Source: a virus
Reading direction: 5' to 3' (one strand)
Virus record (IMG/VR): IMGVR_UViG_650716067_000001
Length of the DNA: 64,000 nucleotides
Numbering within the stretch: the stretch's first letter is position 1; each line of letters begins with the position of its first letter. Positions 36,975-63,887 of the stretch are shown in pieces. The notes beneath the pieces were generated by a model, which did not search any database, was not told the origin of the DNA, and saw only the letters and a program-made list of their open reading frames with translations. The position numbers and the translations under genes are program-made.

Positions 36975-37015
36975 ATGTTATGGTTTTGCAACCCCAGAAA
37001 TGCCTTGATTTTCCG
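36975..37015 (-). promoter_or_regulatory. Late promoter motif CGGAAAA-N28-TAACAT (portal operon)
   Basis: Direct count on minus strand. Confidence 0.75.
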
Positions 37016-37032
37016 CAACAGATACGCGTTAC

Positions 37033-37073
37033 CGGAAAACTGCGGGTAAGCGCGTTTTTTCAGAAGGCATTAT
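37033..37073 (+). promoter_or_regulatory. Late promoter motif CGGAAAA-N28-CATTAT (protease operon)
   Basis: Direct count; back-to-back with portal promoter. Confidence 0.75.
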
Positions 37074-37103
37074 TGACTCAATTAGACAAAACAAGGAGTC
37101 AAT

Positions 37104-37952
37104 ATGCCTATATCTACACCAATGATTCAGTATTCCCTCAAAGACAGGGGGCGAAAGCATACCGGGCAGGCGCGTAATTTCAATACTAAATTGATATGCG
37201 ACGCTATTAATAGCCCAGCTTGTCAGGAAATGGTTTCATCCCGTGGGATGGTGGGATATTACGGCCATTTCCCGCGCGTGCGCTTTGGCATGATGCCATC
37301 GGAGGGCGGTATGGATGGCGGCAAGTATGTGCCGGTCGATCCCGCATTCGTTACCACACACCTGAGCGCAACACCAGAGGGAATCATCCGGCATCAGGCT
37401 GAATTCCTGGATACCGCAGCGGGAATAATTGCGGCTAAGGCATGGAATGGCAGGGTTGGCGGGTTTTCTTCCGCGATTGATGAGAAAAAGCCAGCGTTCT
37501 ACGGTTTTGACTACGTGATGCAGCCGAATTACCTGGGCAATTCTTTCCGTGGCGTGGTTTTGGATGATGTCATGGGCGGCAATTTAGGTGAGCTGACTTA
37601 CGACGACATCTACGCGGCTGAGCAAGACGAGCAGAAACAAGCAATGGTTATGCTGCTGGATAGCTTGGATCGTGAGCGCAACGTTTCCAGCGAAACAATA
37701 GAGCGGTTGCAGCAAGAAAACGAGCAATTGCTATCGATGCTGGCAAAGAAAGGTATCGACCCTTCCATGGTGCTTGATGCGTCTTATATTGCGCCCATCA
37801 TGGTATCCGGTGGAACGCTTGATTCAATCCAGCGGGATATGGAAAGTTTCAAAAACATGGATTCGTTACCAGGTTTTGTTTCCCCCGTGAAAGAGGTAAA
37901 GGAAGAAGCCGGTTCTGTTGTCAGTCGCATGCTTAATAGATTTGCACGGTAG
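37104..37952 (+). CDS. Prohead protease / head-processing protein, P1 Pro-like
   Basis: GYYGH, HQAEFLDT..G, GGFSS, GFDYV..PNY. Confidence 0.75.
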   Translation: MPISTPMIQYSLKDRGRKHTGQARNFNTKLICDAINSPACQEMVSSRGMVGYYGHFPRVRFGMMPSEGGMDGGKYVPVDPAFVTTHLSATPEGIIRHQAEFLDTAAGIIAAKAWNGRVGGFSSAIDEKKPAFYGFDYVMQPNYLGNSFRGVVLDDVMGGNLGELTYDDIYAAEQDEQKQAMVMLLDSLDRERNVSSETIERLQQENEQLLSMLAKKGIDPSMVLDASYIAPIMVSGGTLDSIQRDMESFKNMDSLPGFVSPVKEVKEEAGSVVSRMLNRFAR

Positions 37953-37960
37953 GGCGGGGA

Positions 37961-38686
37961 ATGCTTGAGCCAGTCAAAGTAGCTTTTGGTGAATATATGG
38001 GCGCGTTCTACGCGGGAATAGCGCCTACCACCAGCGGGCTGCATGAATATGTTGCGCGCGGTCTCGCAAAAAGCATTGCGTGGGCACCTTCGAGAATGGT
38101 TGATGCTATAGAAGATATGCTTTCAGCATGGCAGCGCAACGATACCGATGGCGCACCCACCCAACCGGCAAAGATGCCCATTATCTTTGTGGCCATAGCA
38201 AAAGATTACACGCCCTCCGGACGTGATTACACGCGGCAAATATCCGAACAAGTGGAAGTCATATTGCCGGGCGATACCAAAGAGCGTGATTTCAAGGTGC
38301 GGGTTATTTCTGGCGATGTTCGCGCGCAGGTTGTGTTTTGTGCATTCGATGAACCAACCGCCAGATCATTGGCAGCCCAGTTCCTTTTATATCTGGACAA
38401 CATGGAGAATAGGCGTTTTTTCGCCACCTACACGTTTGCCGGTCAGGATCTCACTTGGCCGGTGCAAATTGAATCCCCAGACAATCCCGCCATGTCCATT
38501 CAAACGGACTCGAAGAATTTAACAATACTGGCATGCGATGTCACATTAAGAGCATCGATACCATTATTCAGCGCGCCTGCAGATAGCGACCCGAATGATG
38601 GTAAGGGCACCGATGGAGATCCAAGCGACCCGTCTGGATATCAAGTGGTTGTGCAAGTTAACTACGATAAGGAGGATGTGCTTTGA
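37961..38686 (+). CDS. Virion morphogenesis protein
   Basis: 241-aa ORF in late operon. Confidence 0.55.
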   Translation: MLEPVKVAFGEYMGAFYAGIAPTTSGLHEYVARGLAKSIAWAPSRMVDAIEDMLSAWQRNDTDGAPTQPAKMPIIFVAIAKDYTPSGRDYTRQISEQVEVILPGDTKERDFKVRVISGDVRAQVVFCAFDEPTARSLAAQFLLYLDNMENRRFFATYTFAGQDLTWPVQIESPDNPAMSIQTDSKNLTILACDVTLRASIPLFSAPADSDPNDGKGTDGDPSDPSGYQVVVQVNYDKEDVL

Positions 38687-39018
38687 TGGAAATCTACATT
38701 GATGCTGATGTTGATCTGCTAAATAACCTTGCCCTGGGTTGGCTATTAATCGGATTGGTCTGGGCGCTAATCGTGCTGCGGATGTGCGCGAGGAATCAGG
38801 ATGATTATGAGTTTATCAATCAGAAGCTTGGGATTGTCATTCTGGCCGCTGTTATCGGATGGCCGTACAACTTGTTCTGCTGGATATTCTCATGGCCCGG
38901 GTGGTTAATGCCTGCTAAAGATGTGTTATGGGGTGAGAGCACTCCCACATTTATGGTTGTAGTGGTTTACCCCTTAATTGCTTCTGTCATTATCGCCTTT
39001 CTTGTCGGAGCGCTATGA
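38686..39018 (+). CDS. Multi-pass membrane protein
   Basis: Three hydrophobic helices. Confidence 0.5.
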   Translation: MEIYIDADVDLLNNLALGWLLIGLVWALIVLRMCARNQDDYEFINQKLGIVILAAVIGWPYNLFCWIFSWPGWLMPAKDVLWGESTPTFMVVVVYPLIASVIIAFLVGAL

Positions 39019-39503
39019 TCAAAATCCAAGCCACATTCATTGGCTATGGCGGGCGCGCCTGCACCCTGTTTTCGGCTATTGATCCTGATTCTAATGTTCT
39101 GGTTGTCAGCGTTGAATCTGACTACAGAACTGACCGCATGGATGGCTGTATCGTCATAACCAACAACCCAGAAATACCCTACGACAGCTTATTTACTGAT
39201 GACGATATCAAGGCTGCGATATCCGCTTTCTTTGCGTTCAAGACCGGCTTTGCCAATGACAACAAAAGCCAAAGATTGGTGTTTTCGGAGCGGGCTACTA
39301 GATCAAACCCAGAACAAACGATTGAAAAGGATGGAATGGATTCATCCGGACCGCGTTTTCGCATATCTGAAGGCATTACCTGCGGGCAGATGGCGGCATT
39401 AGCAACCTGCTTGCACGCTTCGCGTTCCGGCACGATTGAGCAAGCGCTGGATATGTTTGATGCGCTTAACGCACTTACACGCGGCGAAATTATCACTATT
39501 TGA
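39015..39503 (+). CDS. Virion morphogenesis protein
   Basis: 162-aa ORF, overlapping starts and stops. Confidence 0.55.
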   Translation: MIKIQATFIGYGGRACTLFSAIDPDSNVLVVSVESDYRTDRMDGCIVITNNPEIPYDSLFTDDDIKAAISAFFAFKTGFANDNKSQRLVFSERATRSNPEQTIEKDGMDSSGPRFRISEGITCGQMAALATCLHASRSGTIEQALDMFDALNALTRGEIITI

Positions 39504-39847
39504 GGATTCCGCTGATGATAGATAAGAACTCCACTGCGGCCAAAAATTTCTATAAAGAAATACGCCTATTCTCTGAAAGAACCAAATCCTGGGAAACGCA
39601 GATATCGTATGAAACCAAACCAGATGAGGCGCATGATCTGACGCTGGTTTCGCAACGTGTCTATGGCCGCCGTGATGAATTTCTGGTGATTATGGCAGCT
39701 GCAGGTCTGGATATGGTCGATCAAGCTTTGCCGCAAAAGCGCCTGACATTGCCTACTGAGGCGCAGCTATACGCCATTAAACGCAGAACAGGGTTTGAAT
39801 CAAAGGCAGATAGCCGGTTTAATTTCTCCCCCACCTGGGCGGCCTAG
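39500..39847 (+). CDS. Baseplate protein with LysM-like fold, P1 gp26-like
   Basis: YETKPDEAHDLTLVSQRVYGRRDE...LTLP. Confidence 0.55.
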   Translation: MRIPLMIDKNSTAAKNFYKEIRLFSERTKSWETQISYETKPDEAHDLTLVSQRVYGRRDEFLVIMAAAGLDMVDQALPQKRLTLPTEAQLYAIKRRTGFESKADSRFNFSPTWAA

Positions 39848-39856
39848 CGTCAAATC

Positions 39857-40942
39857 ATGGTCAATGTATTCTTAGGCAAGATCAAGGGACATATCAGCGA
39901 GGCCAAAGATCGCGCCAAAGCCGACAGGCTTGAGCGGGAGGCTGCGGAAAAGTCACCCAATTCTATAATACTTACTAAGCGCGAAGTTCAAGGCGAATGG
40001 GATGCCAGCCGGGTGCTTTTTACAACCTTAGGTGGTGCCGTGCGCCCGATCACAACCAATGATCTGGCGCAATTCCGTCACAATATGCGGATGGCGCAAA
40101 AGAACTTTAACGGCGATGGTATTACCGCCCGTCAGGTTATAGACCTTGCGTCATCCAAACCGCTTAAGGTTCCTGGATCAGATAGCGACATCGATAGAGC
40201 TAGAAACGAGATCAAAATGGCGGTTCCGGTTTCGGCATTTAACAATGAGGTACGCTTCATTACCAATGCTGGCCCGAACTCCGATGTTACCAGGCATCAT
40301 GTTCTTGTGCGCTTCAATGCGTTTGCTGAAGCCGCCAATAAGCTGATGGCATCGACCGCCAAAGAGCGTAAAGATCCCAAACAAACCGCCAATTGGCTCA
40401 GAAAACAAAAGCTGGCATTCGATTGTGATTGCGGGCGGCATCGGTACTGGTTTCGTTATATCAGCACTATCGGGAATTTCAACGCCGGTCGAAAAGAACT
40501 TGGGTTTCCAAAAATACGCAATCCAAACCTGAAGGGCGTGGCGTGCAAGCACGTTCTGCGCGTCATGTCTGAGGTCGAGTCATCCACGTCTATGCTGAAT
40601 TTCCTATCGAAACACATGGAAAAGCTGCGTGATTCCCAAGACAACACAGCCAAGCATCGAATAAAGCAGAAAGAGCATGACGATGAGATCAAAAAGAAAG
40701 CGAAGGCGCGTGTAAACGCCATCAAAACCAGTGATCAGCGTGCAGCAGAGAGAAAAAGAGCCAAAGAGCGCGAATCCCTGCATAAAAAAGCAAAGCAGGC
40801 AACACGCATGACCAAGAAACCAGCCGCCACGCGCAGGATAGAAGCCGCGCTTGCAGCGGGAAAATTGTCTGCATCGGATCTTGAAGTATTACGCAGGCTG
40901 GGATTCACCGATAAGCAGGTTGCTGCAAAATTAAAAGAATAG
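39857..40942 (+). CDS. SWIM-type Zn-finger tail protein, P1 gp25-like
   Basis: FDCDCGRHRYWFRY...FPKIRNPNLKGVACKHV. Confidence 0.7.
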   Translation: MVNVFLGKIKGHISEAKDRAKADRLEREAAEKSPNSIILTKREVQGEWDASRVLFTTLGGAVRPITTNDLAQFRHNMRMAQKNFNGDGITARQVIDLASSKPLKVPGSDSDIDRARNEIKMAVPVSAFNNEVRFITNAGPNSDVTRHHVLVRFNAFAEAANKLMASTAKERKDPKQTANWLRKQKLAFDCDCGRHRYWFRYISTIGNFNAGRKELGFPKIRNPNLKGVACKHVLRVMSEVESSTSMLNFLSKHMEKLRDSQDNTAKHRIKQKEHDDEIKKKAKARVNAIKTSDQRAAERKRAKERESLHKKAKQATRMTKKPAATRRIEAALAAGKLSASDLEVLRRLGFTDKQVAAKLKE

Positions 40943-40949
40943 GAGCGAT

Positions 40950-41438
40950 ATGTTAACGAATGTACCGAAAGGAATTAATCGCATGGCGCGCAATATCGTC
41001 ATCAATCACCCTAATTCATTTGAGTGCCAGATCTACAGGAAGTATGTTAATAGAAACAATGAATCGATGATTTCTGGTATGCCAACGATTGGCGGGATTG
41101 GTGTCATGAGCGCGGAAGATGAGGAGGATATTTCCTACGATTTCCTTGGCAGCGGCTATGCGCTTCAGGCTGAGCCATTCTCGCCATCGCCGATGATGGA
41201 GCGGCAGGATGCGAATAATGGATTTGCCAATGAATTTCGTTTCCTGATTGAGCCAGAACAGCCTACCGGGGCAGATGGCAGCTTCATGATAAAGAAAGGC
41301 GATGTGATGCTTATCGTGATATCAGATGAGGTTAGATTGGCATACGAGATAGTAGAACCTGAGACGGTTATGAATATCAGTCCGTTCGCAATGCGCTATG
41401 TAACAAACCGCCGTGGTGATTTAGACCTGCTCGGTTGA
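40950..41438 (+). CDS. Virion structural protein, head-closure-like
   Basis: 162-aa ORF with RBS before capsid. Confidence 0.45.
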   Translation: MLTNVPKGINRMARNIVINHPNSFECQIYRKYVNRNNESMISGMPTIGGIGVMSAEDEEDISYDFLGSGYALQAEPFSPSPMMERQDANNGFANEFRFLIEPEQPTGADGSFMIKKGDVMLIVISDEVRLAYEIVEPETVMNISPFAMRYVTNRRGDLDLLG

Positions 41439-41444
41439 TAAAAC

Positions 41445-41485
41445 CGGAAAAACCCCCGTTTCAGCAAATTTCCAGATTCCAGAAT
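41445..41485 (+). promoter_or_regulatory. Late promoter motif CGGAAAA-N28-CAGAAT (capsid operon)
   Basis: Direct count. Confidence 0.75.
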
Positions 41486-41568
41486 AGGCACTTACCAATG
41501 TTTTAAAACGTTGGAGGTGCCCGGTCATCCGTCCGGGTGAGAAATGTTAACCATAGGACAGAAGAATT

Positions 41569-43263
41569 ATGACCAAGCGAACGGTTCACCAAGAATATCT
41601 CAAGAAACAAACCGCCGAAGTAGCAGTATTTGCGGCTGGGTTGCGAGATCAAGGCACAAACAAAGACGGCACCTTCGATTCTGCGGCTGCTAATGATTTT
41701 ATGGCAGCGGCGATCAACCAGAATAATACTGGCGTAAAAGTTCCGGAAAACCTGCAAATAGTCCTGGATGAAATGCCATCTGGAGAAAAAGGCGATGCTG
41801 CGCGGAATGCTGTTACACGGGCGATTCTTGACGGTATTGATATCTACGAATCGCAGCACGGTTGCAATGCCCCCGCAGACATTATTGAGCTTGGCTTGCA
41901 TTTAGCATACTCAACGAGCGATACCGCGAAAAGAAAGTACAAGTTTGATTCTGCCACTTCAGACCATCAAGACAATCTTGGATTGCAGCCGAATCGCGCC
42001 GTGCTTGCCATATTGTCTACCATGGGTGATGCAATTCCTTTTGCACATTATCTGCCAGCGGATATTGGTTCTAACAAAGGCGTTCTGGCTGTTATGGCGC
42101 ATCAGGCAGGCAACACCTACGGTCAGTACGCTGCAGGCGGATCAATGGATGGTGCTAACTCAGGCAATTCATACATCTCAGCATCGCGCGTTCACGTATC
42201 TTTGCCAGCGGTATCTACCGGTGCCGTTACGGGCGCGCTAACAGCGGTTCAGGCAACCGATGAAACTTGTGATTCAGCAGCGGCAACAATCAAACTGTTG
42301 CGTGGCAGAACATTGGTTTATGTCAATGGCGTGGTTGCTGCAAAAGAGGTGGATCAAACAGGTTCTGGCAGTTCCACAATTAGCGGGACGATCAATGTTG
42401 CTGGAACTGATTATGTCATCGGCGGATCGATCAATACCGATACCGGCGTTTATTCACTGACCACAACCCCGGCATTAGGCACAACCGTTCCTGTGGCGGT
42501 GGAAGGTTTTGTTGATTACGAGCGCGCACCAGAATTCACGCCATCCATCATAGCCGCCGCCACCATGTACGAATTGTACGCTTCACCATGGAGAGCGATC
42601 ACTCAAATAACCATTGATTCAGCCACGCAAATGTCAAATGAGCTTGGTCTTGATCCCTATGGCGAGAGCATTCTTTCTATCCAAAATCAATTCTCCAATG
42701 AGCGGCATTACCAGGTTCTGCTCAAGGCGCGTCGTTTGGCCAAAAACAACAGCATTGATTATGACTTCGACTGGCCTAACCAAAAAGGACAGAAAACCCG
42801 TGCGCAAATTTGGCTCGACTTCGCCACTCCACTGGGCGCGGTATCGCAACAAATGGCTGTTGATACGATGGATCACGGCATTACGCACATGTATGTCGGC
42901 AAATACATTGCCTCTGCTTGGATGTCATTGCCGCGCGAAATATTTGAGCCTTCTGGAATCGCTGAAAGACCCGGCATATACCGTATCGGTCGTTTGTTCG
43001 GTCGTATTGACGTGTATTACACACCAAAAGGTTTGACTGACACAGCGGCTGCTGGGCAAATTCTTTGCATCGGTAAAGCTACTAACGTTGCGCTCAATCC
43101 GTTTGTCTTGGGTGATGCGACAGCGCCAATCGTTCAACCATTAGCCGTTAATGCTGACATGAAGCGTGGGGCTGCGTTCTATGCGCGCAATTTCACCGCA
43201 GTTAACCCATACAAGCAAGCTTCTCTTGGGTGCGCGATTATCAACGTTACAAACATGATCTAA
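41569..43263 (+). CDS. Major capsid protein, P1 gp23-like
   Basis: 564 aa; RGRTLVYVN, GRLFGRIDVY, GDATAP recall P1 gp23; followed by sheath. Confidence 0.85.
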   Translation: MTKRTVHQEYLKKQTAEVAVFAAGLRDQGTNKDGTFDSAAANDFMAAAINQNNTGVKVPENLQIVLDEMPSGEKGDAARNAVTRAILDGIDIYESQHGCNAPADIIELGLHLAYSTSDTAKRKYKFDSATSDHQDNLGLQPNRAVLAILSTMGDAIPFAHYLPADIGSNKGVLAVMAHQAGNTYGQYAAGGSMDGANSGNSYISASRVHVSLPAVSTGAVTGALTAVQATDETCDSAAATIKLLRGRTLVYVNGVVAAKEVDQTGSGSSTISGTINVAGTDYVIGGSINTDTGVYSLTTTPALGTTVPVAVEGFVDYERAPEFTPSIIAAATMYELYASPWRAITQITIDSATQMSNELGLDPYGESILSIQNQFSNERHYQVLLKARRLAKNNSIDYDFDWPNQKGQKTRAQIWLDFATPLGAVSQQMAVDTMDHGITHMYVGKYIASAWMSLPREIFEPSGIAERPGIYRIGRLFGRIDVYYTPKGLTDTAAAGQILCIGKATNVALNPFVLGDATAPIVQPLAVNADMKRGAAFYARNFTAVNPYKQASLGCAIINVTNMI

Positions 43264-43320
43264 GCGTCAGATTAATAACTGAAGCAAATTCAAAGTAACG
43301 TTAATAAGGAGTTAGCAATT

Positions 43321-43827: not shown

Positions 43828-43833
43828 TAAACC

Positions 43834-47565: not shown

Positions 47566-47606
47566 CGGAAAATCCACCAAATTCCATCAACACAATTTAG
47601 CACAAT
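47566..47606 (+). promoter_or_regulatory. Late promoter motif CGGAAAA-N28-CACAAT
   Basis: Direct count. Confidence 0.75.
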
Positions 47607-47635: not shown

Positions 47636-48424
47636 GTGTTGCTGGTGATTTATTTTCCCGTTCTCAGAATGCGGCGATTAACAGTGCAGTTGCGAGAACT
47701 ATCAATTGGCGAATCGATAAAGATTGCATCCATGCCGGTGCATTTAGAAGAGGCGACCAACACCGCCATGCTTCGGTATGCCGTCGAAAGTGTGAAGGGC
47801 AAGGATATTATCGAAGATCCCGCGCATTGGACAGTTCAAGAAAGAATCATGACTGTCTGTCACTACTTGGCATCCACTTCAGATGGCGAACCGGATTTCA
47901 CGATTGGCAAAGGCCGGTATACAGACTATTTAGATGGTAGCAACGATTCCGGTTTAATCGAAACCCATATCAAGATCGGTGAAGTTGGTGGGGATATCTG
48001 GCATATAAGGCACCTAACCGGCGCGATGGCAGAATCAATTGAGCGTGTAAGCGGTGAAATTCCAGACATATCTGGAAAATTACACTGGTTACTAGGTGGA
48101 ATGGCCGCTCAAATGACAATTGAAGGCGATAACAGCCCAAGTCCTATAGATGGTGAGGGCAATTTTGATCAGTTCCTTGTTAGCCGGATGAAAGTCATAG
48201 CCGGTTATCCAGAGAGCGATTTTGAAGCATTACTTGATCTGTATCTTGCCGGTCGCAGAAAACTACATCATCTATTCCAAATAGAGTTCGACGAAAACGG
48301 AATTGTTTCATTACCAAAAGGAGGGGCGGCAAGCGATTTGCCACCCGCCCGATTTCCGGTTAGTACCTGCCTCTCGCTCATCACTCTTAACCTGGTCAGA
48401 GTCGCTCATGAGCCTGGCATCTAA
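47636..48424 (+). CDS. Tail/baseplate assembly chaperone-like protein
   Basis: GTG start after AAGAGG; LRELSIGESIKI. Confidence 0.5.
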   Translation: MLLVIYFPVLRMRRLTVQLRELSIGESIKIASMPVHLEEATNTAMLRYAVESVKGKDIIEDPAHWTVQERIMTVCHYLASTSDGEPDFTIGKGRYTDYLDGSNDSGLIETHIKIGEVGGDIWHIRHLTGAMAESIERVSGEIPDISGKLHWLLGGMAAQMTIEGDNSPSPIDGEGNFDQFLVSRMKVIAGYPESDFEALLDLYLAGRRKLHHLFQIEFDENGIVSLPKGGAASDLPPARFPVSTCLSLITLNLVRVAHEPGI

Positions 48425-52846: not shown

Positions 52847-52887
52847 CGGAAAAACAGCCAGTTCATGGCGATTCAGTAAGGCAAAGT
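52847..52887 (+). promoter_or_regulatory. Late promoter motif CGGAAAA-N28-CAAAGT (tail tube operon)
   Basis: Direct count. Confidence 0.7.
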
Positions 52888-52929: not shown

Positions 52930-53430
52930 ATGACAGTTTCTAATACCGCATATCTTCACGGCTTCTACAACGTTTCAAAAGCGCTTGGTGCAAAGGTTAT
53001 TAATAGCGACTTTACTATGGAAATAGAAGGCTTTGAGCAAAATTACTTGCTAATCAAACAAGCCCCTCATCCTCAAGTATCGGTCGGTGGCGAGATAGAA
53101 ATCCCTGGGATTCTGGGAACTACCATGTGGCAGCCACAGCAAGCCAAGGTTGCGCATCAAGGGCAGGTTGCTTTAGAGGAAACCGTGGCCGGTTCCATCG
53201 ATAACATGCTGGTGAATCTCATTTCAAGAGGCGGCTTGTTCAACGCAAAGATTTACGAAGGCACGCCTCAGAGATTCTTGAGAGCAAAACCCATTGTCGA
53301 TTGTTTTATGCAGATTGATAACCCGGACAGAGATTGGGAAAACAGGTCACAGATATTGCTATTCACTGGAACGATGTTTTACCACTACTTTGGAGAGGTA
53401 ATTCCTGGAAATTCAGGAGATTACACATAA
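52930..53430 (+). CDS. Tail tube protein, P1 Tub-like
   Basis: 166 aa; KVINSDFTMEIEGFEQNYLLIKQAPHP. Confidence 0.7.
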   Translation: MTVSNTAYLHGFYNVSKALGAKVINSDFTMEIEGFEQNYLLIKQAPHPQVSVGGEIEIPGILGTTMWQPQQAKVAHQGQVALEETVAGSIDNMLVNLISRGGLFNAKIYEGTPQRFLRAKPIVDCFMQIDNPDRDWENRSQILLFTGTMFYHYFGEVIPGNSGDYT

Positions 53431-55647: not shown

Positions 55648-55650
55648 TAT

Positions 55651-55691
55651 CGTAAAAGCATCGATTTTGGGTGTTTTTGCTGGTGTATTCT
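55651..55691 (+). promoter_or_regulatory. Late promoter variant CGTAAAA-N28-TATTCT
   Basis: Direct count; one mismatch in box. Confidence 0.6.
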
Positions 55692-56712: not shown

Positions 56713-56744
56713 ACAAGCCCGGTTATGCCGGGCTTTGTTTTTTT
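56713..56744 (+). terminator. Intrinsic terminator
   Basis: AAGCCCGG-ttatg-CCGGGCTT then T-tract. Confidence 0.75.
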
Positions 56745-56756
56745 ACCATCGCTTCA

Positions 56757-56797
56757 CGGAAAACCCACCAAATACAGTGCTGTGAGCGGCTTAACAT
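56757..56797 (+). promoter_or_regulatory. Late promoter motif CGGAAAA-N28-TAACAT (darA-like operon)
   Basis: Direct count. Confidence 0.75.
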
Positions 56798-56804
56798 GCT
56801 GCTT

Positions 56805-58661
56805 ATGACACACTCAACTGATACCACATTTCTAAACATCGAAAACGCTGCCCATGGTGGCGCTTTTGGTAAGAATCCTATTCCCGAACCCACGGAAGCG
56901 CAGTGCAAGGCCGGTAACTACAAAATGGGAAGAGTCTCTTTCCAGGGTCTCTCGATAGCCATAGAGCAGCCGCGCGGCACCTATCGAAACGGTATTGATT
57001 CAAAGACCGGCAAGCGCTGGACTTCTCGCATGGCAGCGCATTATGGCTATATCAGCGGCACCAAGGGCGCAGATGGTGACGGTATTGATTGTTTTGTGGG
57101 GCCGTATCCGCAGTCTGAGATTGCATACGCTATCAATCAGTATATCGATGGCCGCTTCGATGAACACAAAATCATGCTGGCTTTCCCGGATGAAGAAACA
57201 GCGAGAAATGCTTATCTGCATAGCTATGAGCGCGGCTGGAAGGGTCTTAAAAGCATAATTCCACTATCGATTAATCAACTCAAATGGTGGCTCAAGCACG
57301 GCAATAAGAGCCAGCCTATCAAATTAGAAAATTTACCACCGGAAGGATTAGAAGCCATGACAAGAAAAGTGCATTGGGATGAAAACGCGCAGCCATATAA
57401 CGCCACTATCGATCAGGTTCTGTATGAGATACGGCAATCAGATTCGGGCGAAAACCTGCTATTGGATGCTGTTAGCATCGCTGAAATTATTGCTGATTCT
57501 GACGGTGTTCTGGCGCTTGATGCGCTGGTTACGCCTTACATCAAACTGCAACGCAAAATGGAAGTATTGCAGGGCGTTATGGAGCGTATGGGCACGGGAA
57601 TTAAACCTGTAGCTATGCAAATAACCGAGCCATTCAAGCAATTTGGCGTGGCGAATGTGGCTGTGGTTTATGAGCTATCAGACGGGCAAACCGTATCGAT
57701 CTATTTTCACAACCCTGATGCAACACCAGCAAAGCTGTCACCGAATGATGATGTTATTTCTTACAAATGGCTGTTAAACAAGAAAGATATCACGATTGTT
57801 GTGGCACCTGAGCGCGGCCAGGATCTGAATATCCGTGAAGTGGCGCGCCGCATCCTGAAACTGGCTGAAAAGAACAGCCCGGCTTTTGCTCGTGCAAATG
57901 CAAAGCGTGTGGATCGTATGCAGAACATTCAATCGTTGAAGGATGAAATTGTAGTTTTGGAGGGCGAATTGAAAAGCGCGCAGAATGAATTGGAAATTGC
58001 CAAGGTTGCTGCTGAAGATCGAAAACCAGAGGATACAAAACCGCCAATCCTTCCAGAAACCGATTTCAACGTGGACATAGCATCGTTGATCGAAGCGTTG
58101 CCGGGGCTTGATGGCTATGGCATAACCAGTCTGATTATTCGCACAAATGGCGAAATAAATGCAGTTAGCGGCCATGACATCAAGGCATCTGGCGTAACTG
58201 ATGCAGATATTCTAGCTGCTTATGGTAAGGGATTGTTGCGTGAGGCTGCGGCGGATCAATCAACGGGTGGCACAGATAACCAAACTGTAGCTGAAGAATC
58301 GCAAAACCCATCACCCCAAGAAGATGATCTGACAAAGACCGCAGAACAACCTGATGCAGGGACTGATACGGACGTTCCAACTACGTCGAATTCGACAGAA
58401 TTAAACCCTGTCGCTTCGGAAATCGAAGTCCCACCAGCTTCTGAAATAGAAGCCGAATCCGAAGATATGAAGGCGGCCAGAGAATTCCTTAAATCGGTCG
58501 TGGATGGTGACAAAGACACGGATGATCTAATAGCCTTGTTGGATAAGATCGAAGCATCTGCCAATGCGATTATTGAAGCCGGTAAGGGTGAAGAATTTGA
58601 TGCTCTTATAGGTTCCGCCGCTGAAAAATGGGCGGAACTTGACAAGCAAGCGAACGGGTAG
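56805..58661 (+). CDS. darA: DarA-like internal head protein with N-terminal inorganic-pyrophosphatase-like domain
   Basis: GNYKMGR..IAIEQPRG...YGYISGTKGADGDGIDCFVGP; DarA-N-like middle; acidic linker; helical C-terminus. Confidence 0.7.
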   Translation: MTHSTDTTFLNIENAAHGGAFGKNPIPEPTEAQCKAGNYKMGRVSFQGLSIAIEQPRGTYRNGIDSKTGKRWTSRMAAHYGYISGTKGADGDGIDCFVGPYPQSEIAYAINQYIDGRFDEHKIMLAFPDEETARNAYLHSYERGWKGLKSIIPLSINQLKWWLKHGNKSQPIKLENLPPEGLEAMTRKVHWDENAQPYNATIDQVLYEIRQSDSGENLLLDAVSIAEIIADSDGVLALDALVTPYIKLQRKMEVLQGVMERMGTGIKPVAMQITEPFKQFGVANVAVVYELSDGQTVSIYFHNPDATPAKLSPNDDVISYKWLLNKKDITIVVAPERGQDLNIREVARRILKLAEKNSPAFARANAKRVDRMQNIQSLKDEIVVLEGELKSAQNELEIAKVAAEDRKPEDTKPPILPETDFNVDIASLIEALPGLDGYGITSLIIRTNGEINAVSGHDIKASGVTDADILAAYGKGLLREAAADQSTGGTDNQTVAEESQNPSPQEDDLTKTAEQPDAGTDTDVPTTSNSTELNPVASEIEVPPASEIEAESEDMKAAREFLKSVVDGDKDTDDLIALLDKIEASANAIIEAGKGEEFDALIGSAAEKWAELDKQANG

Positions 58662-58667
58662 CCCGCC

Positions 58668-59039: not shown

Positions 59040-60919
59040 TTGCCGGTGCAGAAAAACTCAAACTGATACGCGAGCTTGGGGTTATCCGCAAAAACCTGCC
59101 AGATGTTGCCGGGGTAAATAAACTTACTCTGGTCAAGCGCGTGCGCGAGATACGGAAATTGCTGTCAGTATCAAACATTGAGCCTGCTGTTAGCCTGCTA
59201 ATAGATCCATCTAAACCTATTGAATCAATCGATTCGCTGACCAATTACCTGCGTAATGGCCTTTCTGCGATTCATGAAGCATTGCGTGGCGCTGAAGCCG
59301 ATACCTTGATAAAAATATACAACTTACTGCCAAAAGATCGAAGTGACGAACATGCAGATGTCAGAAATGATCTTTTGGCGGCTGTTACAGAAGTTGTAGG
59401 TAGCGATAAAGATAAATGGGCGTTTGCATCATTCGATCACTTCAAATCATCTGGTAATGTGTTTGATGTTGATTCTCAGGCGATTATTTCGGTTTTAGAG
59501 TCAGTGGATGCGCTCACCAAAACCGCGCCAGAAGATACGCCGGAAATTGCTGCGCAAAGAAAAGCGGCTGATGAGGAATACGACAGACTGCAAGATGCTT
59601 TAGCAAAGTTGCTAGGAATAAATGCAGCCAATGGATACAGCAAGGAAGAGATAGACAAGGCTGCTGACGAGTATGAAGCAACCAGGGCAAAGAAAAACGA
59701 AGTGTGGGGGCAGATTAGAGGTTTAAGTGAAAAGAAATACGATGATCATAAAAAGCGCATTGCCGAATTAAAGGACAGTATTGCCCCTGTCGGTCAAAAG
59801 ATCATAGATACCCTGCTGAATAGCTCAAAAGTGACTCAGGAGCAGGCGGATTCATGGGCGAGTAGTCAAATAATCGAAAAATCGGCTATTACCCGGCTAA
59901 AGAAAATGGGATATCCAGAAGCTGATATACGCCGCGATATGTCTGAATTCTACCGCATCACTGGGGGCAAACTCAGGCAAGTTAGATTAGAGACCAATGG
60001 AAGCAAGCGCGCCAATGCGAGCGGCATAGGTCATTTCGAGGATAGCGTTATCCGTCCAGGAAGCGAATTCAATAAAAAAATATTGTGGCATGAAATGGCT
60101 CATCATCTTGAGGCTGATTCAGCGGCTAAAGCGGCATCCAATGGATATCTGCTGAAAAGAAGAAAGAGCGAGAAAGTGTATTCCCTTAAATCGTTGACTC
60201 GCAACCCAGGCTATAAAAGCAACGAGGGCGCATATGATGATAATTTTATCGATCATTACATCGGCAAGGTGTATCCAGATAAAACTACTGAAGTATGGTC
60301 TATGGGAATCCAATATCTTGCAACCCCACAGGATGCCGCGATGATGGCTGCCAAAGATCCGGAAATGGCGGCATTGATGGCTGGATATCTTCAGGCCGAT
60401 CTAACCCCTGCCATGAAAGCGCTTCAAACTATTCAGGATAGCGCTAAGGATAAAGCCCAAGAAAAACGTGATCAATTCAAAAGCGAATATGAGCAGGCAT
60501 TGGATAAGTTGTCAGCAGGTATTGAGATTGTTGATGACGGCTGGTTTGATGCGCTAGATCCTGTTGACCAAGGAAATTTACTTAGCAGCTGGGGGATGAG
60601 AGACCCAAATGCAAAATTCATTGGATCTTGGGAAAATTATCGAGTGTTCGCCGGGAAGTTTCGAGGCAAAACAAAGCGGGTTAGTAAGGGATATGCGGTT
60701 GTTTATACCAGACAGTCCGGCACATTCCTAATTCCTGGCAGTACATCAAGAGAAATTCCTTCCGCTTTTTCTGTGCATGGTGATATGCGGGAAGTGAGAG
60801 CTTTTATCAAGCTAGCACAAATGTTCGGTGATGATCCTCGCTTCGTTCGCTGGAATGTCTATGGTGATGAAGGCAGGATAATTCGGGAAGCAAATAAATT
60901 ATCGGGTGAACAATCATGA
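59036..60919 (+). CDS. Putative injected polyvalent protein with zincin HExxH metallopeptidase domain
   Basis: ILWHEMAHHLE; TEVWSMGIQ. Confidence 0.7.
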   Translation: MIAGAEKLKLIRELGVIRKNLPDVAGVNKLTLVKRVREIRKLLSVSNIEPAVSLLIDPSKPIESIDSLTNYLRNGLSAIHEALRGAEADTLIKIYNLLPKDRSDEHADVRNDLLAAVTEVVGSDKDKWAFASFDHFKSSGNVFDVDSQAIISVLESVDALTKTAPEDTPEIAAQRKAADEEYDRLQDALAKLLGINAANGYSKEEIDKAADEYEATRAKKNEVWGQIRGLSEKKYDDHKKRIAELKDSIAPVGQKIIDTLLNSSKVTQEQADSWASSQIIEKSAITRLKKMGYPEADIRRDMSEFYRITGGKLRQVRLETNGSKRANASGIGHFEDSVIRPGSEFNKKILWHEMAHHLEADSAAKAASNGYLLKRRKSEKVYSLKSLTRNPGYKSNEGAYDDNFIDHYIGKVYPDKTTEVWSMGIQYLATPQDAAMMAAKDPEMAALMAGYLQADLTPAMKALQTIQDSAKDKAQEKRDQFKSEYEQALDKLSAGIEIVDDGWFDALDPVDQGNLLSSWGMRDPNAKFIGSWENYRVFAGKFRGKTKRVSKGYAVVYTRQSGTFLIPGSTSREIPSAFSVHGDMREVRAFIKLAQMFGDDPRFVRWNVYGDEGRIIREANKLSGEQS

Positions 60920-62373
60920 TGAATAGCGTTTATAAAGTTTTTACGCCTGCCGGTCAATTCGATGCGATCTTCGCTGAAGATGAGGATATTCCACTCGAAT
61001 ACAGTGGTGATGAACCGGCTATTAGTTTTTTTAAAGACTGGTTATTCATCAATCAGGTAAGCGGCGAACACGGCCACTTGCTGGATAGCGAAAACCTTAC
61101 ACCCAGAGATCTATACGGATTCTGCCAGCCACGCGGTGGCGTAATTGAAGTGATGCCGCCATTCGAGGATCTACTGGCATACATCCAGGAAGATGCCGCG
61201 AACCAAGCTGAAGATAACTTTGAACAACTACAGGAAGAAAATACTATGCATACCCTCATTACCAATGATTCTGCAATCCTTGACGATGTGGTGAAAATTA
61301 TTGGTGATGCAACACTAGATGGCATATCCGGTATTGAAAAAATAAAGCTGATTAAGGAGGCCGGAAGCATCCGCGCAAATCTGCAAACCGTTCAATCCGG
61401 AATCGAGAAGCATAAGATGGTTAAACGTATCAAGGAAATTCGTGATGCTTTGGGTGTTGGTGATGGATTAGGCAAAGACGGACTTGACGCTGATGGAATG
61501 TGGCCAATGACCAGAGCGGAGTATGACAAGATTCACAGCGACTACAAGGGAGCCTTCCCGGATGGCACGCCTACAGCGCTCAAACTGATTAACGGCGGAA
61601 CTTCTATTGTGCCCGTGCGAATCACTGATGAGCAGCCGAAAGCTCAAGAGCCAGAGGTAAAGCCGCAAGTCACCATAGAAGATGTTAACAAAGTCATGCC
61701 GCTGTTAAAACAGTTCATCGGCAAGGCTCAGTTATCTGCAATCGGAATGGGTATTCGTGGCGAGGAAGGTCAATTTTTCAAGGATAAGTTGATCGAGATT
61801 GCCAACGTAATCCAAACCATGCCAAAAACATACGGTCAGGATGGTATGGGCGATAAGGCGATTGCCTATCTGCACTATTTCAAAGGCGCAGGCGACTGGC
61901 ATATTACCGAAAAGGATATGGAAGATGAGCAATTGCAGGCGTTCGGGCTTGCAAATATTGGTTACGGCGGCGAACTTGGTTATATCAGCATTCAGGAATT
62001 GATTGATGCCGGTGTTGAGCTTGATTTGTATTGGACTCCCAAAACTATTGGGGAGATTAAGGGTGGAAGTAGTGAGGATGAAAACCAGGGCACTGAAACT
62101 GGTGGTGATGAAACCGGTGGTGAATCAACAGAAATCCCGCAATCCACCGAAGAGCCTCAGACTATAACGCCAGCTGATACCATAAAAGCCGGATTCGTGG
62201 CCGAACTTGAAGCCCTAAAATCCGAAACCGATATCAACCGATTCAACGAACGACTTGATGAAATTGCGGCGAGGATCGAGCAAGCCGGTTTGATGGAATC
62301 GCTTGATAAAGAATTGAATGATGCGGCGGATGTGCTAACGCGCCTGCTATACGAGGCTGAGAAAGGCGTTTAA
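60916..62373 (+). CDS. Putative injected polyvalent protein with DUF2958-like domain
   Basis: YLHYF...WHITE...AFGLANIGYGGELGYISIQEL...ELDLYWTPKTIGEI; acidic linker; helical C-terminus. Confidence 0.65.
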   Translation: MMNSVYKVFTPAGQFDAIFAEDEDIPLEYSGDEPAISFFKDWLFINQVSGEHGHLLDSENLTPRDLYGFCQPRGGVIEVMPPFEDLLAYIQEDAANQAEDNFEQLQEENTMHTLITNDSAILDDVVKIIGDATLDGISGIEKIKLIKEAGSIRANLQTVQSGIEKHKMVKRIKEIRDALGVGDGLGKDGLDADGMWPMTRAEYDKIHSDYKGAFPDGTPTALKLINGGTSIVPVRITDEQPKAQEPEVKPQVTIEDVNKVMPLLKQFIGKAQLSAIGMGIRGEEGQFFKDKLIEIANVIQTMPKTYGQDGMGDKAIAYLHYFKGAGDWHITEKDMEDEQLQAFGLANIGYGGELGYISIQELIDAGVELDLYWTPKTIGEIKGGSSEDENQGTETGGDETGGESTEIPQSTEEPQTITPADTIKAGFVAELEALKSETDINRFNERLDEIAARIEQAGLMESLDKELNDAADVLTRLLYEAEKGV

Positions 62374-62404
62374 ATTGTGACTGGCATAGACATCACACAA
62401 AATC

Positions 62405-63115
62405 TTAAGCGGGGCTTGGCTTTAGCGTACATGCTTCTACTAAGCTTCTCCCCAAGACAGCTGGATAAATGTGGCCAAATAATTGGCCTCCTCCCCATGT
62501 GGTTGGTAGTGAGATGCAACCTAAGCGTGCGAGGTTTGCTAAGGCAAGTATAACTTCTGCATTTGGTGGTATAGGTTGCGCTCTATTATCTTCATCATGG
62601 ATTACTATTTCAGATGGTAAATTTGTTGTTATAAGTAACTTATTACTAATGTCGCCCTCTGGTAGTGCATAGATAACCGATAATATCTTTGCTTCTAAAT
62701 TGGAGAGCCTCTCCAAGATGTCAATGTGTGTGCGATTAAGATCAATAGGACCGTTCTCAATAGTGGAATTAACAAGCAATTTTGCCCATAAATCCTGCAA
62801 ATAATCGTCATCTTCAAGCGAAGCAGCCTCAAATAAAGGAATGGCAAGTTTTAAAGGTATTGGTTTAATTGGAGTATCAATGCCGATACTATTCATAAGG
62901 GTTCTTGTTTTCTGTATAAAACTCACCTGCCTTTCCAAACGCATATATTTTAATTTGTCCTCATATATTCCAATGGCTTGTTCTAATGGACCAGATATGA
63001 AACGCGAAATGAAGCCACCCACTTCCTTACTTGCTTCGATAGCTTGCCCGGTTGTTTTTGCTACTTCTTGAACTGCTTTAGCAGTTTCTTTCACAGCTTC
63101 AATTTCTTCTGTCAT
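62405..63115 (-). CDS. Abi-alpha / DUF4393-like protein
   Basis: IPLKLAIPLFEAASLEDDDYLQDLWAKLLVNS...IDILERLSNLEAKIL. Confidence 0.7.
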   Translation of the reverse strand: MTEEIEAVKETAKAVQEVAKTTGQAIEASKEVGGFISRFISGPLEQAIGIYEDKLKYMRLERQVSFIQKTRTLMNSIGIDTPIKPIPLKLAIPLFEAASLEDDDYLQDLWAKLLVNSTIENGPIDLNRTHIDILERLSNLEAKILSVIYALPEGDISNKLLITTNLPSEIVIHDEDNRAQPIPPNAEVILALANLARLGCISLPTTWGGGQLFGHIYPAVLGRSLVEACTLKPSPA

Positions 63116-63208
63116 ATTTATATCCTGAGATCCAATAAGTAATCCTTACCATATTCAGCGAAGGTGCATGCTTAGCGATATGTAATAGATTGCTGATGTT
63201 GCAATTTT

Positions 63209-63598
63209 CTAACCATGTAACGCCAATTTAGCAATAAATCCTGAGCGAGATTCCCCAGCCTCTTTCGCCGCCGCATCGATACGACGAAGTACGCGCGATG
63301 GAAGCGTGATATTTATGCGCTCAACCTTATCCGATAATTCGGCCAGATCAATTGTGACGACTGCCCAGACCCAGCCTTTGTATTCAGGATTGGCTTGATG
63401 CTCACTGATGCTTTTAGGGTGAGGCACAGAGCCGCCATCATCAATTACGGTTTCTAACCACAATTCAATTGCTTCTTTTGCTTTATCGATTGCTTCATCA
63501 ATCGTATCGCCCGCAGAAAAACAGCCTGGAAGATCAGGAACGACCACGCCGAAAGCGTGCTTGTCATCACCAGGTTCAATTGCTATTGGATATCTCAT
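63209..63598 (-). CDS. hicB: HicB antitoxin
   Basis: YPIAIE...FGVVVPDLPGCFSAGDTIDEA; C-terminal RHH RINITLP. Confidence 0.93.
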   Translation of the reverse strand: MRYPIAIEPGDDKHAFGVVVPDLPGCFSAGDTIDEAIDKAKEAIELWLETVIDDGGSVPHPKSISEHQANPEYKGWVWAVVTIDLAELSDKVERINITLPSRVLRRIDAAAKEAGESRSGFIAKLALHG

Positions 63599-63608
63599 GT
63601 AATTCCTC

Positions 63609-63791
63609 TTATTTAAGCCCCGCTTGTTTTAACAACTTGTTTGAGAGACCAATGCCAAGGTCTTTTTTAGGATGCGGAACGCTGATATGACCGCTTTTCT
63701 CAGGATGAGTATAAACGTGGTGCGATCCCTTGGTTCCCCGTAGTGACCATCCATCCTTTTCAAGTTGTTTGATAATTTCTTTGCTGTTCAT
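63609..63791 (-). CDS. hicA: HicA toxin
   Basis: MNSKEIIKQLEKDGW...KGSHHVYTHP...VPHPKKDL. Confidence 0.93.
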   Translation of the reverse strand: MNSKEIIKQLEKDGWSLRGTKGSHHVYTHPEKSGHISVPHPKKDLGIGLSNKLLKQAGLK

Positions 63792-63846
63792 GTTGTGTAT
63801 TGTACACACCATTTTAAAAAGATCAATAGTGTGTTCAGTTATCCAC

Positions 63847-63887
63847 CGGAAAACCAAGCAAATTGAGGGCTGTAGCGTCTCTATGAT
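63847..63887 (+). promoter_or_regulatory. Late promoter motif CGGAAAA-N28-TATGAT for a gene continuing beyond the window
   Basis: Direct count. Confidence 0.7.

What the first reader, a model, noticed from the sequence alone, without database searches (positions are those of the whole stretch)
36975..63887. Phage-specific late promoter CG(G/T)AAAA-N28-YANNNT at eight operon starts
Seen: the box lies exactly 28 nt before a -10-like hexamer at 37015 on the minus strand (TAACAT, portal), 37033 (CATTAT, protease), 41445 (CAGAAT, capsid), 47566 (CACAAT), 52847 (CAAAGT, tube), 55651 (CGTAAAA variant, TATTCT), 56757 (TAACAT, darA-like) and 63847 (TATGAT). All are intergenic, oriented toward late genes and lack a canonical -35. 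Two form a divergent TTTTCCG-N17-CGGAAAA inverted repeat. Known: P1 late genes use an activator-bound box plus -10, with lpa directly upstream of pacA. Inference: a distinct activator-dependent late regulon with a box near -45, most likely read by the HTH protein at 22732-23385, which occupies the lpa position but is XRE-type.
Basis: partly seen in the sequence, partly recalled or inferred. Interest (0 to 1): 0.8.

Follow-up and report, generated by a model that had tools for sequence, protein, structure and literature searches.

The report
New late-promoter class, P1-like prophage
A Nitrosomonas prophage with a P1-type virion starts its late operons from promoters of an undescribed type: an invariant CGGAAAA box 28 nt upstream of a weak -10, with no -35. 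The box is conserved in related phages and satellites of many Proteobacteria and is most likely read by a conserved phage helix-turn-helix protein rather than a P1 Lpa-type activator.

Summary
CGKAAAA-N28-YANNNT occurs 8 times in the window against about 1 expected, and about 0.8 per 64 kb across the host genome. All eight sites are non-coding and point into late genes. The 13 other CGGAAAA heptamers in the window are intragenic and lack the hexamer.

The element is an integrated temperate phage of Nitrosomonas with lambdoid early genes and a P1-like virion. It has no Lpa homologue and no P1-type -22 boxes.

Relatives with 58-90% portal identity keep the box, the hexamer and the spacing while the spacer sequence diverges. 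Two 64-66% GC relatives, including Xanthomonas phage Rb1, use N29. At two promoters the start codon lies 6-7 nt after the hexamer in four phages. This indicates leaderless mRNAs and supports reading the hexamer as a -10.

The only regulator conserved in all box-bearing phages is the 217-aa XRE-HTH protein at 22732-23385. It follows the RusA-like resolvase and precedes terS. A Mor-family gene at 30289-30675 is a tempting rival but is absent from the relatives. Satellite-like elements carry an HTH homologue plus the same promoter. Acinetobacter phage ABMM1 has the same architecture with a TGGAAC box.

No transcription data exist, so promoter activity and the activator assignment are inferred.

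The parts
36975..37015 (-). Late promoter of the portal operon: CGGAAAA box at 37009-37015, N28, hexamer TAACAT at 36975-36980.
   Evidence: The box, spacing and hexamer are kept in relatives with 58-90% portal identity while the spacer diverges.
37033..37073 (+). Late promoter of the Pro-like head-processing operon: box at 37033-37039, hexamer CATTAT. It is divergent from the portal promoter, with the two boxes 17 nt apart.
   Evidence: The gap between the two boxes varies from 13 to 19 nt in relatives, so they are two independent sites.
41445..41485 (+). Late promoter upstream of the major capsid gene (41569-43263); hexamer CAGAAT.
   Evidence: Orthologous promoters occur in G190, G191, G193, G192, Rb1 and many genome loci.
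47566..47606 (+). Late promoter upstream of the PmgB-like gene (47636-48424); hexamer CACAAT.
52847..52887 (+). Late promoter upstream of the tail tube gene (52930-53430); hexamer CAAAGT.
   Evidence: The orthologues in G190 and G192 have the same hexamer CAAAGT.
55651..55691 (+). Variant late promoter (CGTAAAA box, hexamer TATTCT) upstream of the Hdf-like gene.
   Evidence: The orthologous site reads CGTAAAA in G190, CGGAAAA-N29-CACAAT in G192 and CGGAAAT-N29-CACAAT in Rb1.
56757..56797 (+). Late promoter of the DarA_N/InPase-domain gene; hexamer TAACAT. A conserved ATG at 56805 lies 7 nt after the hexamer, which suggests a leaderless mRNA.
   Evidence: An intrinsic terminator lies just upstream.
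63847..63887 (+). Late promoter of the DarB-like gene, which starts at 63923 and runs past the window end; hexamer TATGAT.
56715..56735 (+). Intrinsic terminator (9-bp stem, 6 GC pairs, T-run) that closes the preceding operon 22 nt before the 56757 box.
22732..23385 (+). Candidate late activator, 217 aa: an N-terminal XRE-type HTH (PF13560) followed by a long helical hairpin. It is the last gene of the early rightward operon, after the RusA-like resolvase and directly before terS.
22180..22674 (+). RusA-like Holliday-junction resolvase. It is a positional marker: the gene after it is the HTH protein in this phage, in Rb1 and in ABMM1.
23392..25768 (+). terS (23392-24255) and terL (24245-25768). 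No box promoter precedes them and terS starts 6 nt after the HTH stop codon, so they are probably co-transcribed with the HTH gene.

Best explanation
The eight sites are the late promoters of an integrated temperate phage of Nitrosomonas that has lambdoid early genes and a P1-like virion. Each promoter has an invariant, asymmetric 7-bp box (CGGAAAA, one CGTAAAA variant) at about -47 to -41. The spacer is a fixed 28 bp of free sequence, and 29 bp also occurs in relatives. The -10 is weak and keeps only the sigma-70-critical A at position 2 and T at position 6. There is no -35. Host sigma-70 RNA polymerase cannot use such promoters alone. A phage activator bound to the box recruits it, and this switches on the head, tail, Dar and lysis-region operons. 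The activator is most likely the 217-aa XRE-HTH protein encoded at 22732-23385. That gene is the last of the early rightward operon, so it takes the place that Q holds in lambdoid phages and Lpa holds in P1. Shown here: the motif, its statistics, its placement and its conservation. Inferred: transcription start sites, activator dependence, the HTH-box pairing and the contact with polymerase.
For: Phylogenetic footprint: the box, hexamer and spacing are kept in relatives with 58-90% portal identity although the spacer diverges. They are also kept, with N29, in the two 64-66% GC relatives G192 and Xanthomonas phage Rb1. Support for the hexamer as a -10: the ATG lies 6-7 nt after it at the darA-like and baseplate promoters in four phages each. 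The same holds at a third promoter in three genome loci. A terminator lies just upstream of one box, and no site has a -35. For the activator, the HTH protein is the only non-structural protein besides terminase that is conserved in G190, G191, G193 and Rb1 at 41-74% identity. It is also present in all 7 related genomes. Its HTH region is nearly invariant across 30 homologues, which matches an invariant box. The RusA-like gene is followed by the HTH gene in this phage, in Rb1 and in ABMM1. Across 49 genome loci of Beta- and Gammaproteobacteria that encode full-length homologues, there are 64 box+hexamer sites against 16 for control heptamers. Loci of Firmicutes that match only the HTH domain show no enrichment, 8 against 8.9. 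Satellite-like 13-kb elements with no P1-like virion genes detected in the ORFs scanned carry an HTH homologue together with the same promoter. ABMM1 has a positional and remote homologue, with the same best PHROG (phrog_7396), and the same architecture with a different box: TGGAAC-N30-ANNNT occurs 19 times against 3 expected. No Lpa, sigma-70-family, Ogr/Delta or Q gene is found in the prophage.
Against: There are no transcription data, and no RNA run was listed. XRE-type proteins usually bind palindromes as dimers, but only one asymmetric 7-bp element is conserved and no second half-site survives across relatives. The link between the HTH gene and the box is confounded by shared ancestry of whole phages, and only the satellites and ABMM1 break that confounding. 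About 8 of the longer loci with an HTH homologue show no box within 10 kb. The similarity to the ABMM1 protein is weak outside the HTH domain (hhalign probability 68%). A small or fast-evolving activator would escape the tblastn conservation screen, which used ORFs of at least 60 aa.
Confidence: 0.6

Rival explanations
1. The promoters are real, but the activator is the Mor/C-family protein at 30289-30675 (minus strand). It would act as in phage Mu, where Mor and C bind near -43.5 of promoters that lack a good -35.
For: The protein matches PF08765 (Mor) at E 5.6e-16 and PHROG 'late transcriptional activator' families at E 9e-34. The box centre near -44 matches the position I recall for Mor/C sites.
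Against: No homologue and no PF08765 match exists in the close relative G190 or in the complete genome of Rb1. Both keep the box, and the search does find the gene in G000, which serves as the positive control. The whole 26.6-32.2 kb block that contains the gene is missing from all relatives. No dyad symmetry is conserved at the box.
Confidence: 0.06
2. The promoters are real but are read by something else. This could be a host factor, the RNA polymerase alpha-CTD using the A-tract as an UP-like element, or an unrecognised small or fast-evolving phage protein such as a sigma appropriator.
For: The box lies where the proximal UP subsite lies and ends in AAAA. The conservation screen used only tblastn on ORFs of at least 60 aa. 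P1 late transcription needs a host factor, SspA (my own knowledge).
Against: The invariant CGG and the strict restriction to phage late operons argue against a generic UP element. The host genome shows no comparable clustering. The box is the same in phages of hosts with 44-66% GC in Beta- and Gammaproteobacteria. A constitutive host-read promoter would express late genes in the lysogen. No sigma-70-family gene lies in the prophage.
Confidence: 0.24
3. The repeated motif is not a promoter. It could be some other phage cis element, such as a site for packaging, replication, partition, repression or termination control.
For: No transcript mapping exists. One site (63847) is followed by a 9-bp inverted repeat that could be an operator (sequence).
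Against: The distance to a hexamer keeping A2 and T6 is fixed. Every site points into the downstream operon. Start codons lie 6-7 nt after the hexamer in several phages. One box follows a terminator. There is no Rfam match. Sites are absent from the early and replication regions.
Confidence: 0.04

Closest known systems
Phage P1 late promoters and their activator Lpa (gp10)
   Same: The virion gene set is related, and the late operons start at -10-only promoters that carry one conserved upstream box. The P1 record annotates 11 such LP promoters, and its activator gene lies directly upstream of the packaging genes.
   Different: The P1 box is AAGTGACTT, 4 nt upstream of the -10 (the '-22 region'). 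Here the box is CGGAAAA, 28 nt upstream. No Lpa homologue exists here. The window has 1 weak P1-type match against 14 in P1, and P1 has 0 CGGAAAA-type sites. The candidate activator is an XRE-HTH protein unrelated to Lpa.
Phage Mu Mor and C activators (middle and late promoters)
   Same: These are also -10-only promoters that depend on a small phage activator bound around -44 (my own knowledge for Mu). A Mor-family gene is present in this prophage.
   Different: The Mor-family gene does not travel with the box. The box is asymmetric, without the dyad expected for Mor/C.
P2 Ogr / P4 delta: a helper and its satellite sharing one late-promoter type
   Same: Satellite-like elements encode their own homologue of the candidate activator and carry the same promoter in front of terS-like and PmgG-like genes. 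This resembles P4 delta and Psid relative to P2.
   Different: No Ogr/Delta zinc-finger protein is present. The box sequence and its position differ. The helper-satellite relation is inferred from gene content only.
T4 MotA/AsiA middle promoters and other class II-type activation of sigma-70 polymerase
   Same: The -35 contact is replaced by an activator bound at a fixed distance upstream of a sigma-70 -10.
   Different: The MotA box is centred at -30 and needs the co-activator AsiA. Here the box is near -44 and no AsiA-like partner was identified.
Restriction-modification controller (C) proteins and Cro/CI-type repressors
   Same: They are the nearest folds to the N-terminal domain of the candidate activator (TM by target 0.77-0.85). 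Some are also transcription activators.
   Different: They are small dimers that bind palindromic operators. This protein carries an extra helical hairpin of about 100 residues, and its presumed site is a single asymmetric heptamer.

Membership tests
P1-type (Punavirus) Lpa-dependent late promoters | A conserved 9-bp '-22' box (AAGTGACTT-like) 4 nt upstream of a TANNNT hexamer. | tested here: not met
   With up to 2 mismatches, the window has 1 match (intragenic) against 14 in P1. The P1 promoter sequences were read.
P1-type (Punavirus) Lpa-dependent late promoters | An Lpa-family activator (phrog_1704) encoded by the phage. | tested here: not met
   tblastn with P1 Lpa gives a best E of 1.3 in the window and 6.8 in the genome. 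The phrog_1704 profile gives a best E of 0.11, outside the prophage.
P1-type (Punavirus) Lpa-dependent late promoters | Requirement for the host protein SspA. | not testable with these tools
   This needs genetics or in vitro transcription.
Mu Mor/C-dependent promoters | A Mor/C-family (PF08765) activator that co-occurs with the promoters. | tested here: not met
   The gene is present at 30289-30675. It is absent from G190, G191 and Rb1, which keep the box, with G000 as the positive control.
Mu Mor/C-dependent promoters | A dyad-symmetric binding site centred near -43.5. | tested here: not met
   The box centre is near -44. However, only the asymmetric heptamer is conserved across 27 sites from five phages, with no second half-site.
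P2 Ogr / P4 delta late activation | An Ogr/Delta zinc-finger activator (PF04606). | tested here: not met
   No match in the genome at E <= 0.1.
Lambdoid Q antitermination | A Q-family antiterminator (PF06530 or PF03589) after the nin/rusA region. | tested here: not met
   No match in the genome. The XRE-HTH gene occupies that position.
Phage-encoded sigma factor promoters | A sigma-70-family protein (regions 2 and 4) encoded in the phage. | tested here: not met
   All PF04542 and PF08281 matches lie outside the prophage interval, about 1.503-1.597 Mb.
Activator-dependent sigma-70 promoters without a -35 (general kind) | A -10 hexamer keeping A at position 2 and T at position 6, no -35, and an upstream site at a fixed distance. 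| tested here: met
   The spacing is N28 here, and N28 or N29 in relatives.
Activator-dependent sigma-70 promoters without a -35 (general kind) | Transcription depends on the activator and starts about 7 nt after the hexamer. | not testable with these tools
   No RNA run was listed. The only indirect support is the conserved ATG 6-7 nt after the hexamer.
XRE/Cro-CI helix-turn-helix proteins (PF13560), for the candidate activator | An N-terminal five-helix HTH domain. | tested here: met
   PF13560 at E 1.2e-7, above its cut-off. The AlphaFold model has pLDDT around 90 over residues 20-90. The nearest folds are C.BclI, C.AhdI and the 434 and P22 repressors.
phrog_7396 (function unknown), the family of the ABMM1 RusA-adjacent HTH protein | A full-length match to the family profile. 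| tested here: inconclusive
   ABMM1 matches at E 2e-105 over its full length. The window protein (E 1.8e-7) and the Rb1 protein (E 6e-10) have it as their best PHROG but match only the first ~88 positions. hhalign gives probability 68%.

The most novel reading that the evidence does not exclude
An undescribed family of phage late-gene activators (an XRE-type HTH fused to a long helical hairpin) recognises a single asymmetric heptamer near -44. It drives the whole late regulon, including leaderless mRNAs, in a widespread group of temperate phages of Beta- and Gammaproteobacteria that combine lambdoid early genes with P1-like virions. The specificity has diverged between lineages: CGGAAAA in this clade and TGGAAC in Acinetobacter phage ABMM1. 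Satellite elements have captured both the activator and its promoter to exploit these phages.
Probability: 0.5. Interest if true: 0.65.

Novelty: new variant of a known kind. Interest (0 to 1): 0.55.

Why it matters
Late-gene switches are known in detail for only a few model phages: lambda Q, P2 Ogr, Mu C, P1 Lpa and T4. This finding gives a defined, testable promoter-activator pair for a large and almost unstudied group of temperate phages. Their hosts include ammonia oxidisers (Nitrosomonas), wastewater Rhodocyclaceae, Burkholderiales, methanotrophs, Xanthomonas and, in a variant form, Acinetobacter baumannii.

It shows that the P1-type virion module has been coupled to at least two unrelated late-control systems. 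The motif offers a simple way to annotate late operons and satellites in these genomes. A monomer-like heptamer read by an XRE-type protein would be an unusual mode of activation. The promoter and activator could also serve as an orthogonal expression switch.

Tried and rejected
- **Near-identity searches:** megablast of the late region against the phage and plasmid collections found nothing.
- **P1 Lpa:** not found by tblastn or by the phrog_1704 profile.
- **Mor-family protein as activator:** rejected because the gene is absent from box-bearing relatives.
- **Other late-control systems:** a phage sigma factor, Ogr/Delta and Q antiterminators were not found.
- **Second half-site or dyad:** a weak 'C..CCA..T' after the box appears in the low-GC phages but vanishes when the high-GC relatives are added.
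- **ECF-like reading:** I tested CGGAAAA as a -35 with a -10 about 17 nt downstream. No conserved element is present there.
- **RNA evidence:** no RNA run was listed for the region, so no reads were laid.
- **Function of the C-terminal half of the HTH protein:** Foldseek against the PDB and Swiss-Prot models and the ESM Atlas gave nothing beyond the XRE domain.
- **Rfam:** no match in 36-64 kb.
- **Loci with an HTH homologue but no CGGAAAA site:** a crude de novo search for an alternative box gave nothing convincing.
- **Orphan promoter copy at genome 2468556:** I examined it as a possible satellite. It lies among host genes and IS elements with no downstream gene, so it is treated as a relic.
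- **Literature:** no paper was found on this motif, on phage Rb1, or on promoters of ABMM1.

Full report
**1.

The pattern CGKAAAA-N28-YANNNT occurs 8 times in the window, at exactly the coordinates, strands and hexamers reported. The expectation is 0.99, and none of 100 shuffles reaches 8. The 3.78-Mb genome that contains the window has 48 matches in all, about 0.8 per 64 kb. None lies within 60 kb on either side of the window.

The window holds 20 CGGAAAA heptamers. The 13 inside coding sequence never have the hexamer. The 7 in non-coding DNA all have it, with a binomial P of 1.3e-6. Non-coding DNA is only 5.9% of 35285-64000. In the late region, six of the eight plus-strand intergenic gaps of at least 45 nt carry a box. 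The box of the eighth site (63847) falls inside a doubtful minus-strand ORF. No site has a sigma-70-like -35. The two boxes between portal and protease are 17 nt apart, back to back.

**2. What the element is**

The window is part of an integrated prophage. The prophage runs from an integrase-like ORF just left of the window to at least 78 kb in window coordinates, so past the right end of the window.

- Its virion genes are distant P1 relatives: portal, Pro, gp23 capsid, sheath, tube, PmgB, Hdf, DarA_N, DdrB and DarB, at 23-39% identity.
- Its early region is lambdoid: CII-like, O- and P-like replication genes, Ant and a RusA-like resolvase.
- The host is a Nitrosomonas. Near-identical loci come from Nitrosomonas genomes, and a SMBP-family gene lies elsewhere in the chromosome.
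- The closest sequenced phage is Xanthomonas phage Rb1, with 62% portal identity. Next are Acinetobacter phage ABMM1 (31%) and the P1/D6 group (about 25-29%).

**3. The motif is conserved in relatives**

Seven genomes of the same genus and several IMG/VR contigs encode portals 58-90% identical to this one. Between portal and protease most of them keep the divergent CGGAAAA-N28-YANNNT pair. The 28-nt spacers differ at most positions, and the gap between the two boxes varies from 13 to 19 nt.

The close relative G190 has orthologues of seven sites. It also has the CGTAAAA variant at the hdf-like promoter. Two relatives with 64-66% GC (G192 and Rb1) keep the heptamer unchanged in front of the capsid, tube, hdf-like, darA-like and baseplate genes, but with a 29-nt spacer.

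I aligned 27 sites from five phages. Only the heptamer, a weak C two positions after it, and positions 2, 5 and 6 of the hexamer are conserved. No second half-site is present.

A ninth site, AGGAAAA-N29-TACGAT, lies beyond the window end at about 73036, in front of the baseplate operon.

**4. Evidence that the hexamer is a -10**

- The conserved hexamer positions are the A and T that sigma-70 region 2 needs (my own knowledge).
- At the darA-like promoter the ATG lies 7, 7, 7 and 6 nt after the hexamer in G000, G190, G192 and Rb1. At the baseplate promoter the distances are 6, 6, 7 and 6 nt. A third promoter in three genome loci shows hexamer-6 nt-ATG.
- Such conserved spacing, across genomes from 44% to 66% GC, is best explained by leaderless mRNAs that start at the predicted +1.
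- A strong intrinsic terminator ends 22 nt before the 56757 box.
- If +1 lies 7-8 nt after the hexamer, the box spans about -47/-48 to -41/-42.

**5. It is not the P1 system**

The P1 record annotates late promoters as a 9-bp '-22 region' (AAGTGACTT-like), 4 nt, then TANNNT, with lpa directly upstream of pacA. With two mismatches allowed, the window has one intragenic match to that pattern against 14 in P1. P1 has no CGGAAAA-type site. No Lpa homologue is found by tblastn or by the phrog_1704 profile.

**6. Who reads the box**

A Mor-family gene at 30289-30675 is labelled 'late transcriptional activator' by PHROGs. The box centre near -44 recalls Mu Mor/C sites. However, the gene and the whole 26.6-32.2 kb block around it are absent from G190, G191, G193 and the complete Rb1 genome, all of which keep the box. 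The same profile search does find the gene in G000.

No sigma-70-family, Ogr/Delta or Q gene lies in the prophage.

Two reciprocal screens were run, one of all window ORFs against the relatives and one of all non-structural Rb1 genes against the others. They leave one conserved regulator: the 217-aa protein at 22732-23385. It is 74, 45, 47 and 41% identical in G190, G191, G193 and Rb1, and it is present in all seven related genomes.

The protein has these properties:

- It has a PF13560 HTH domain.
- The HTH region is nearly invariant across 30 homologues, while the C-terminal half varies.
- The AlphaFold model (mean pLDDT 81) shows a Cro/CI-type domain at residues 16-85 and a long helical hairpin at 93-196.
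- Only the HTH domain finds structural relatives, with R-M controller proteins first.
- The gene follows the RusA-like resolvase at the end of the early rightward operon, where lambdoid phages place Q. terS starts 6 nt after its stop codon and has no box promoter of its own.
- Among 50,697 phage records, only Rb1 has a full-length homologue.

**7. Tests that partly break the confounding with shared ancestry**

(a) Homologues with 35-37% identity lie in integrated elements of about 13 kb. These encode an integrase, a replication initiator and helicase, AlpA, a PmgG-like protein and two terS-like proteins. PHROG scans of ten of their ORFs found no portal, capsid or tail genes, which is a satellite-like gene set. 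They carry CGGAAAA-N28-GAnAAT in intergenic DNA just downstream of the HTH gene.

(b) In 49 genome loci that encode full-length homologues, the box plus a hexamer at N28/29 occurs 64 times, against 16 for control heptamers. The hosts include Nitrosomonas, Rhodocyclaceae, Burkholderiales, Ectothiorhodospira, Halomonas, Lysobacter and Methylobacter. Most sites are on the same strand as the HTH gene and downstream of it. Loci of Firmicutes that match only the HTH domain show no enrichment, 8 against 8.9.

(c) ABMM1 also has the RusA-like gene followed by an HTH protein of 228 aa. That protein shares the best PHROG, phrog_7396, and gives an hhalign E of 5e-5 over the HTH domain. Its late operons carry TGGAAC in the same register: TGGAAC-N30-ANNNT occurs 11 and 8 times against 1.6 and 1.5 expected. 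In ABMM1 the gene is 15 kb from the terminase genes, which argues against a packaging role. The ABMM1 paper does not mention promoters.

**8. Proposed mechanism and its limits**

The early operon ends with the HTH protein. The protein binds the heptamer at about -44 and recruits host sigma-70 polymerase to weak -10 elements that lack a -35. This switches on at least nine late transcription units, and at least two of them give leaderless mRNAs. Tolerance of N28 or N29 suggests a somewhat flexible contact.

The following remain unknown: whether the protein binds as a monomer or a dimer, which polymerase subunit it touches, and whether a host factor is needed as in P1. Nothing here measures transcription. 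The HTH-box pairing rests on co-occurrence, gene position and the lack of alternatives.

I put the promoter reading at about 0.9 and the full statement, including the activator, at about 0.6.

**9. Novelty**

I found no paper on this motif, on Rb1, or on late promoters of ABMM1. The general kind, a phage activator acting on -10-only late promoters, is classical. The box, its position, the candidate activator family and its spread to satellites are new. Hence 'new variant of a known kind'.

Noticed in passing
window 26641-32210: A 5.6-kb block is absent from all relatives examined. It holds a Mor-family gene (30289-30675, minus strand), a DUF5131 gene, a GMT-wHTH protein, a weak sub-threshold TraT-like match and two plus-strand ORFs. 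It looks like an inserted accessory or decayed element between the terminase region and the tail/portal operon.
   Followed up: partly
genome G000:C1:2468556-2468605 (outside the window; L118:8556-8605): This is an orphan 50-nt copy, 84% identical, of the capsid late promoter, with box and hexamer intact. It lies among host genes (CsbD-like, SMBP, hemerythrin) and IS transposases, with no gene downstream on that strand. It is probably a relic. If active, it would give induction-dependent antisense transcription.
   Followed up: partly
loci L047-L050 (metagenome contigs): These are integrated elements of about 13 kb. They encode an integrase, AlpA, a replication initiator, a DnaB-like helicase, a homologue of the HTH protein, a PmgG-like head protein and two terS-like proteins, and they carry a CGGAAAA-N28 promoter. 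They are candidate satellites of this phage group.
   Followed up: partly
beyond the window end: about 73036-73083 in window numbering (G000:C1:1577760 onward): A ninth late promoter, AGGAAAA-N29-TACGAT, has the ATG of the baseplate operon 6 nt after the hexamer. It is conserved in G190. G192 and Rb1 have the canonical box at the same place.
   Followed up: yes
window 56796-56807 and 36940-37018: The start codons given by the longest ORFs are probably wrong. The DarA_N gene most likely starts at the conserved ATG at 56805, giving a leaderless mRNA, not at 56796. The portal gene cannot start at TTG 37018, which lies upstream of its own promoter. ATG 36940 is the first in-frame start downstream of the predicted +1.
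   Followed up: partly
window 62405-63896, minus strand: Three minus-strand ORFs of 236, 129 and 95 aa lie between the dar operon and the darB promoter. They have no counterpart in G190, G192 or Rb1, where the promoter follows the preceding gene directly. This is a likely moron insertion. The 95-aa ORF overlaps the 63847 promoter.
   Followed up: no
window 63884-63911: A perfect 9-bp inverted repeat (TGATGATGG, 10 nt, CCATCATCA) overlaps the -10 and +1 of the darB-like promoter. It is a possible operator for extra control of this one late promoter.
   Followed up: no
Acinetobacter phage vB_AbaM_ABMM1 (L053, L054): ABMM1 has about 15 intergenic TGGAAC-N29-NANNNT sites in front of its late operons, including a divergent pair before the portal gene. 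Two more lie upstream of its RusA-HTH operon, which suggests autoregulation. None of this is described in the ABMM1 paper.
   Followed up: partly
window 23385-23392: terS starts 6 nt after the stop codon of the HTH gene and has no late promoter. The terminase genes therefore appear to be expressed with the activator from the early/middle transcript. This differs from P1, where a late promoter (LPpac) lies between lpa and pacA.
   Followed up: partly
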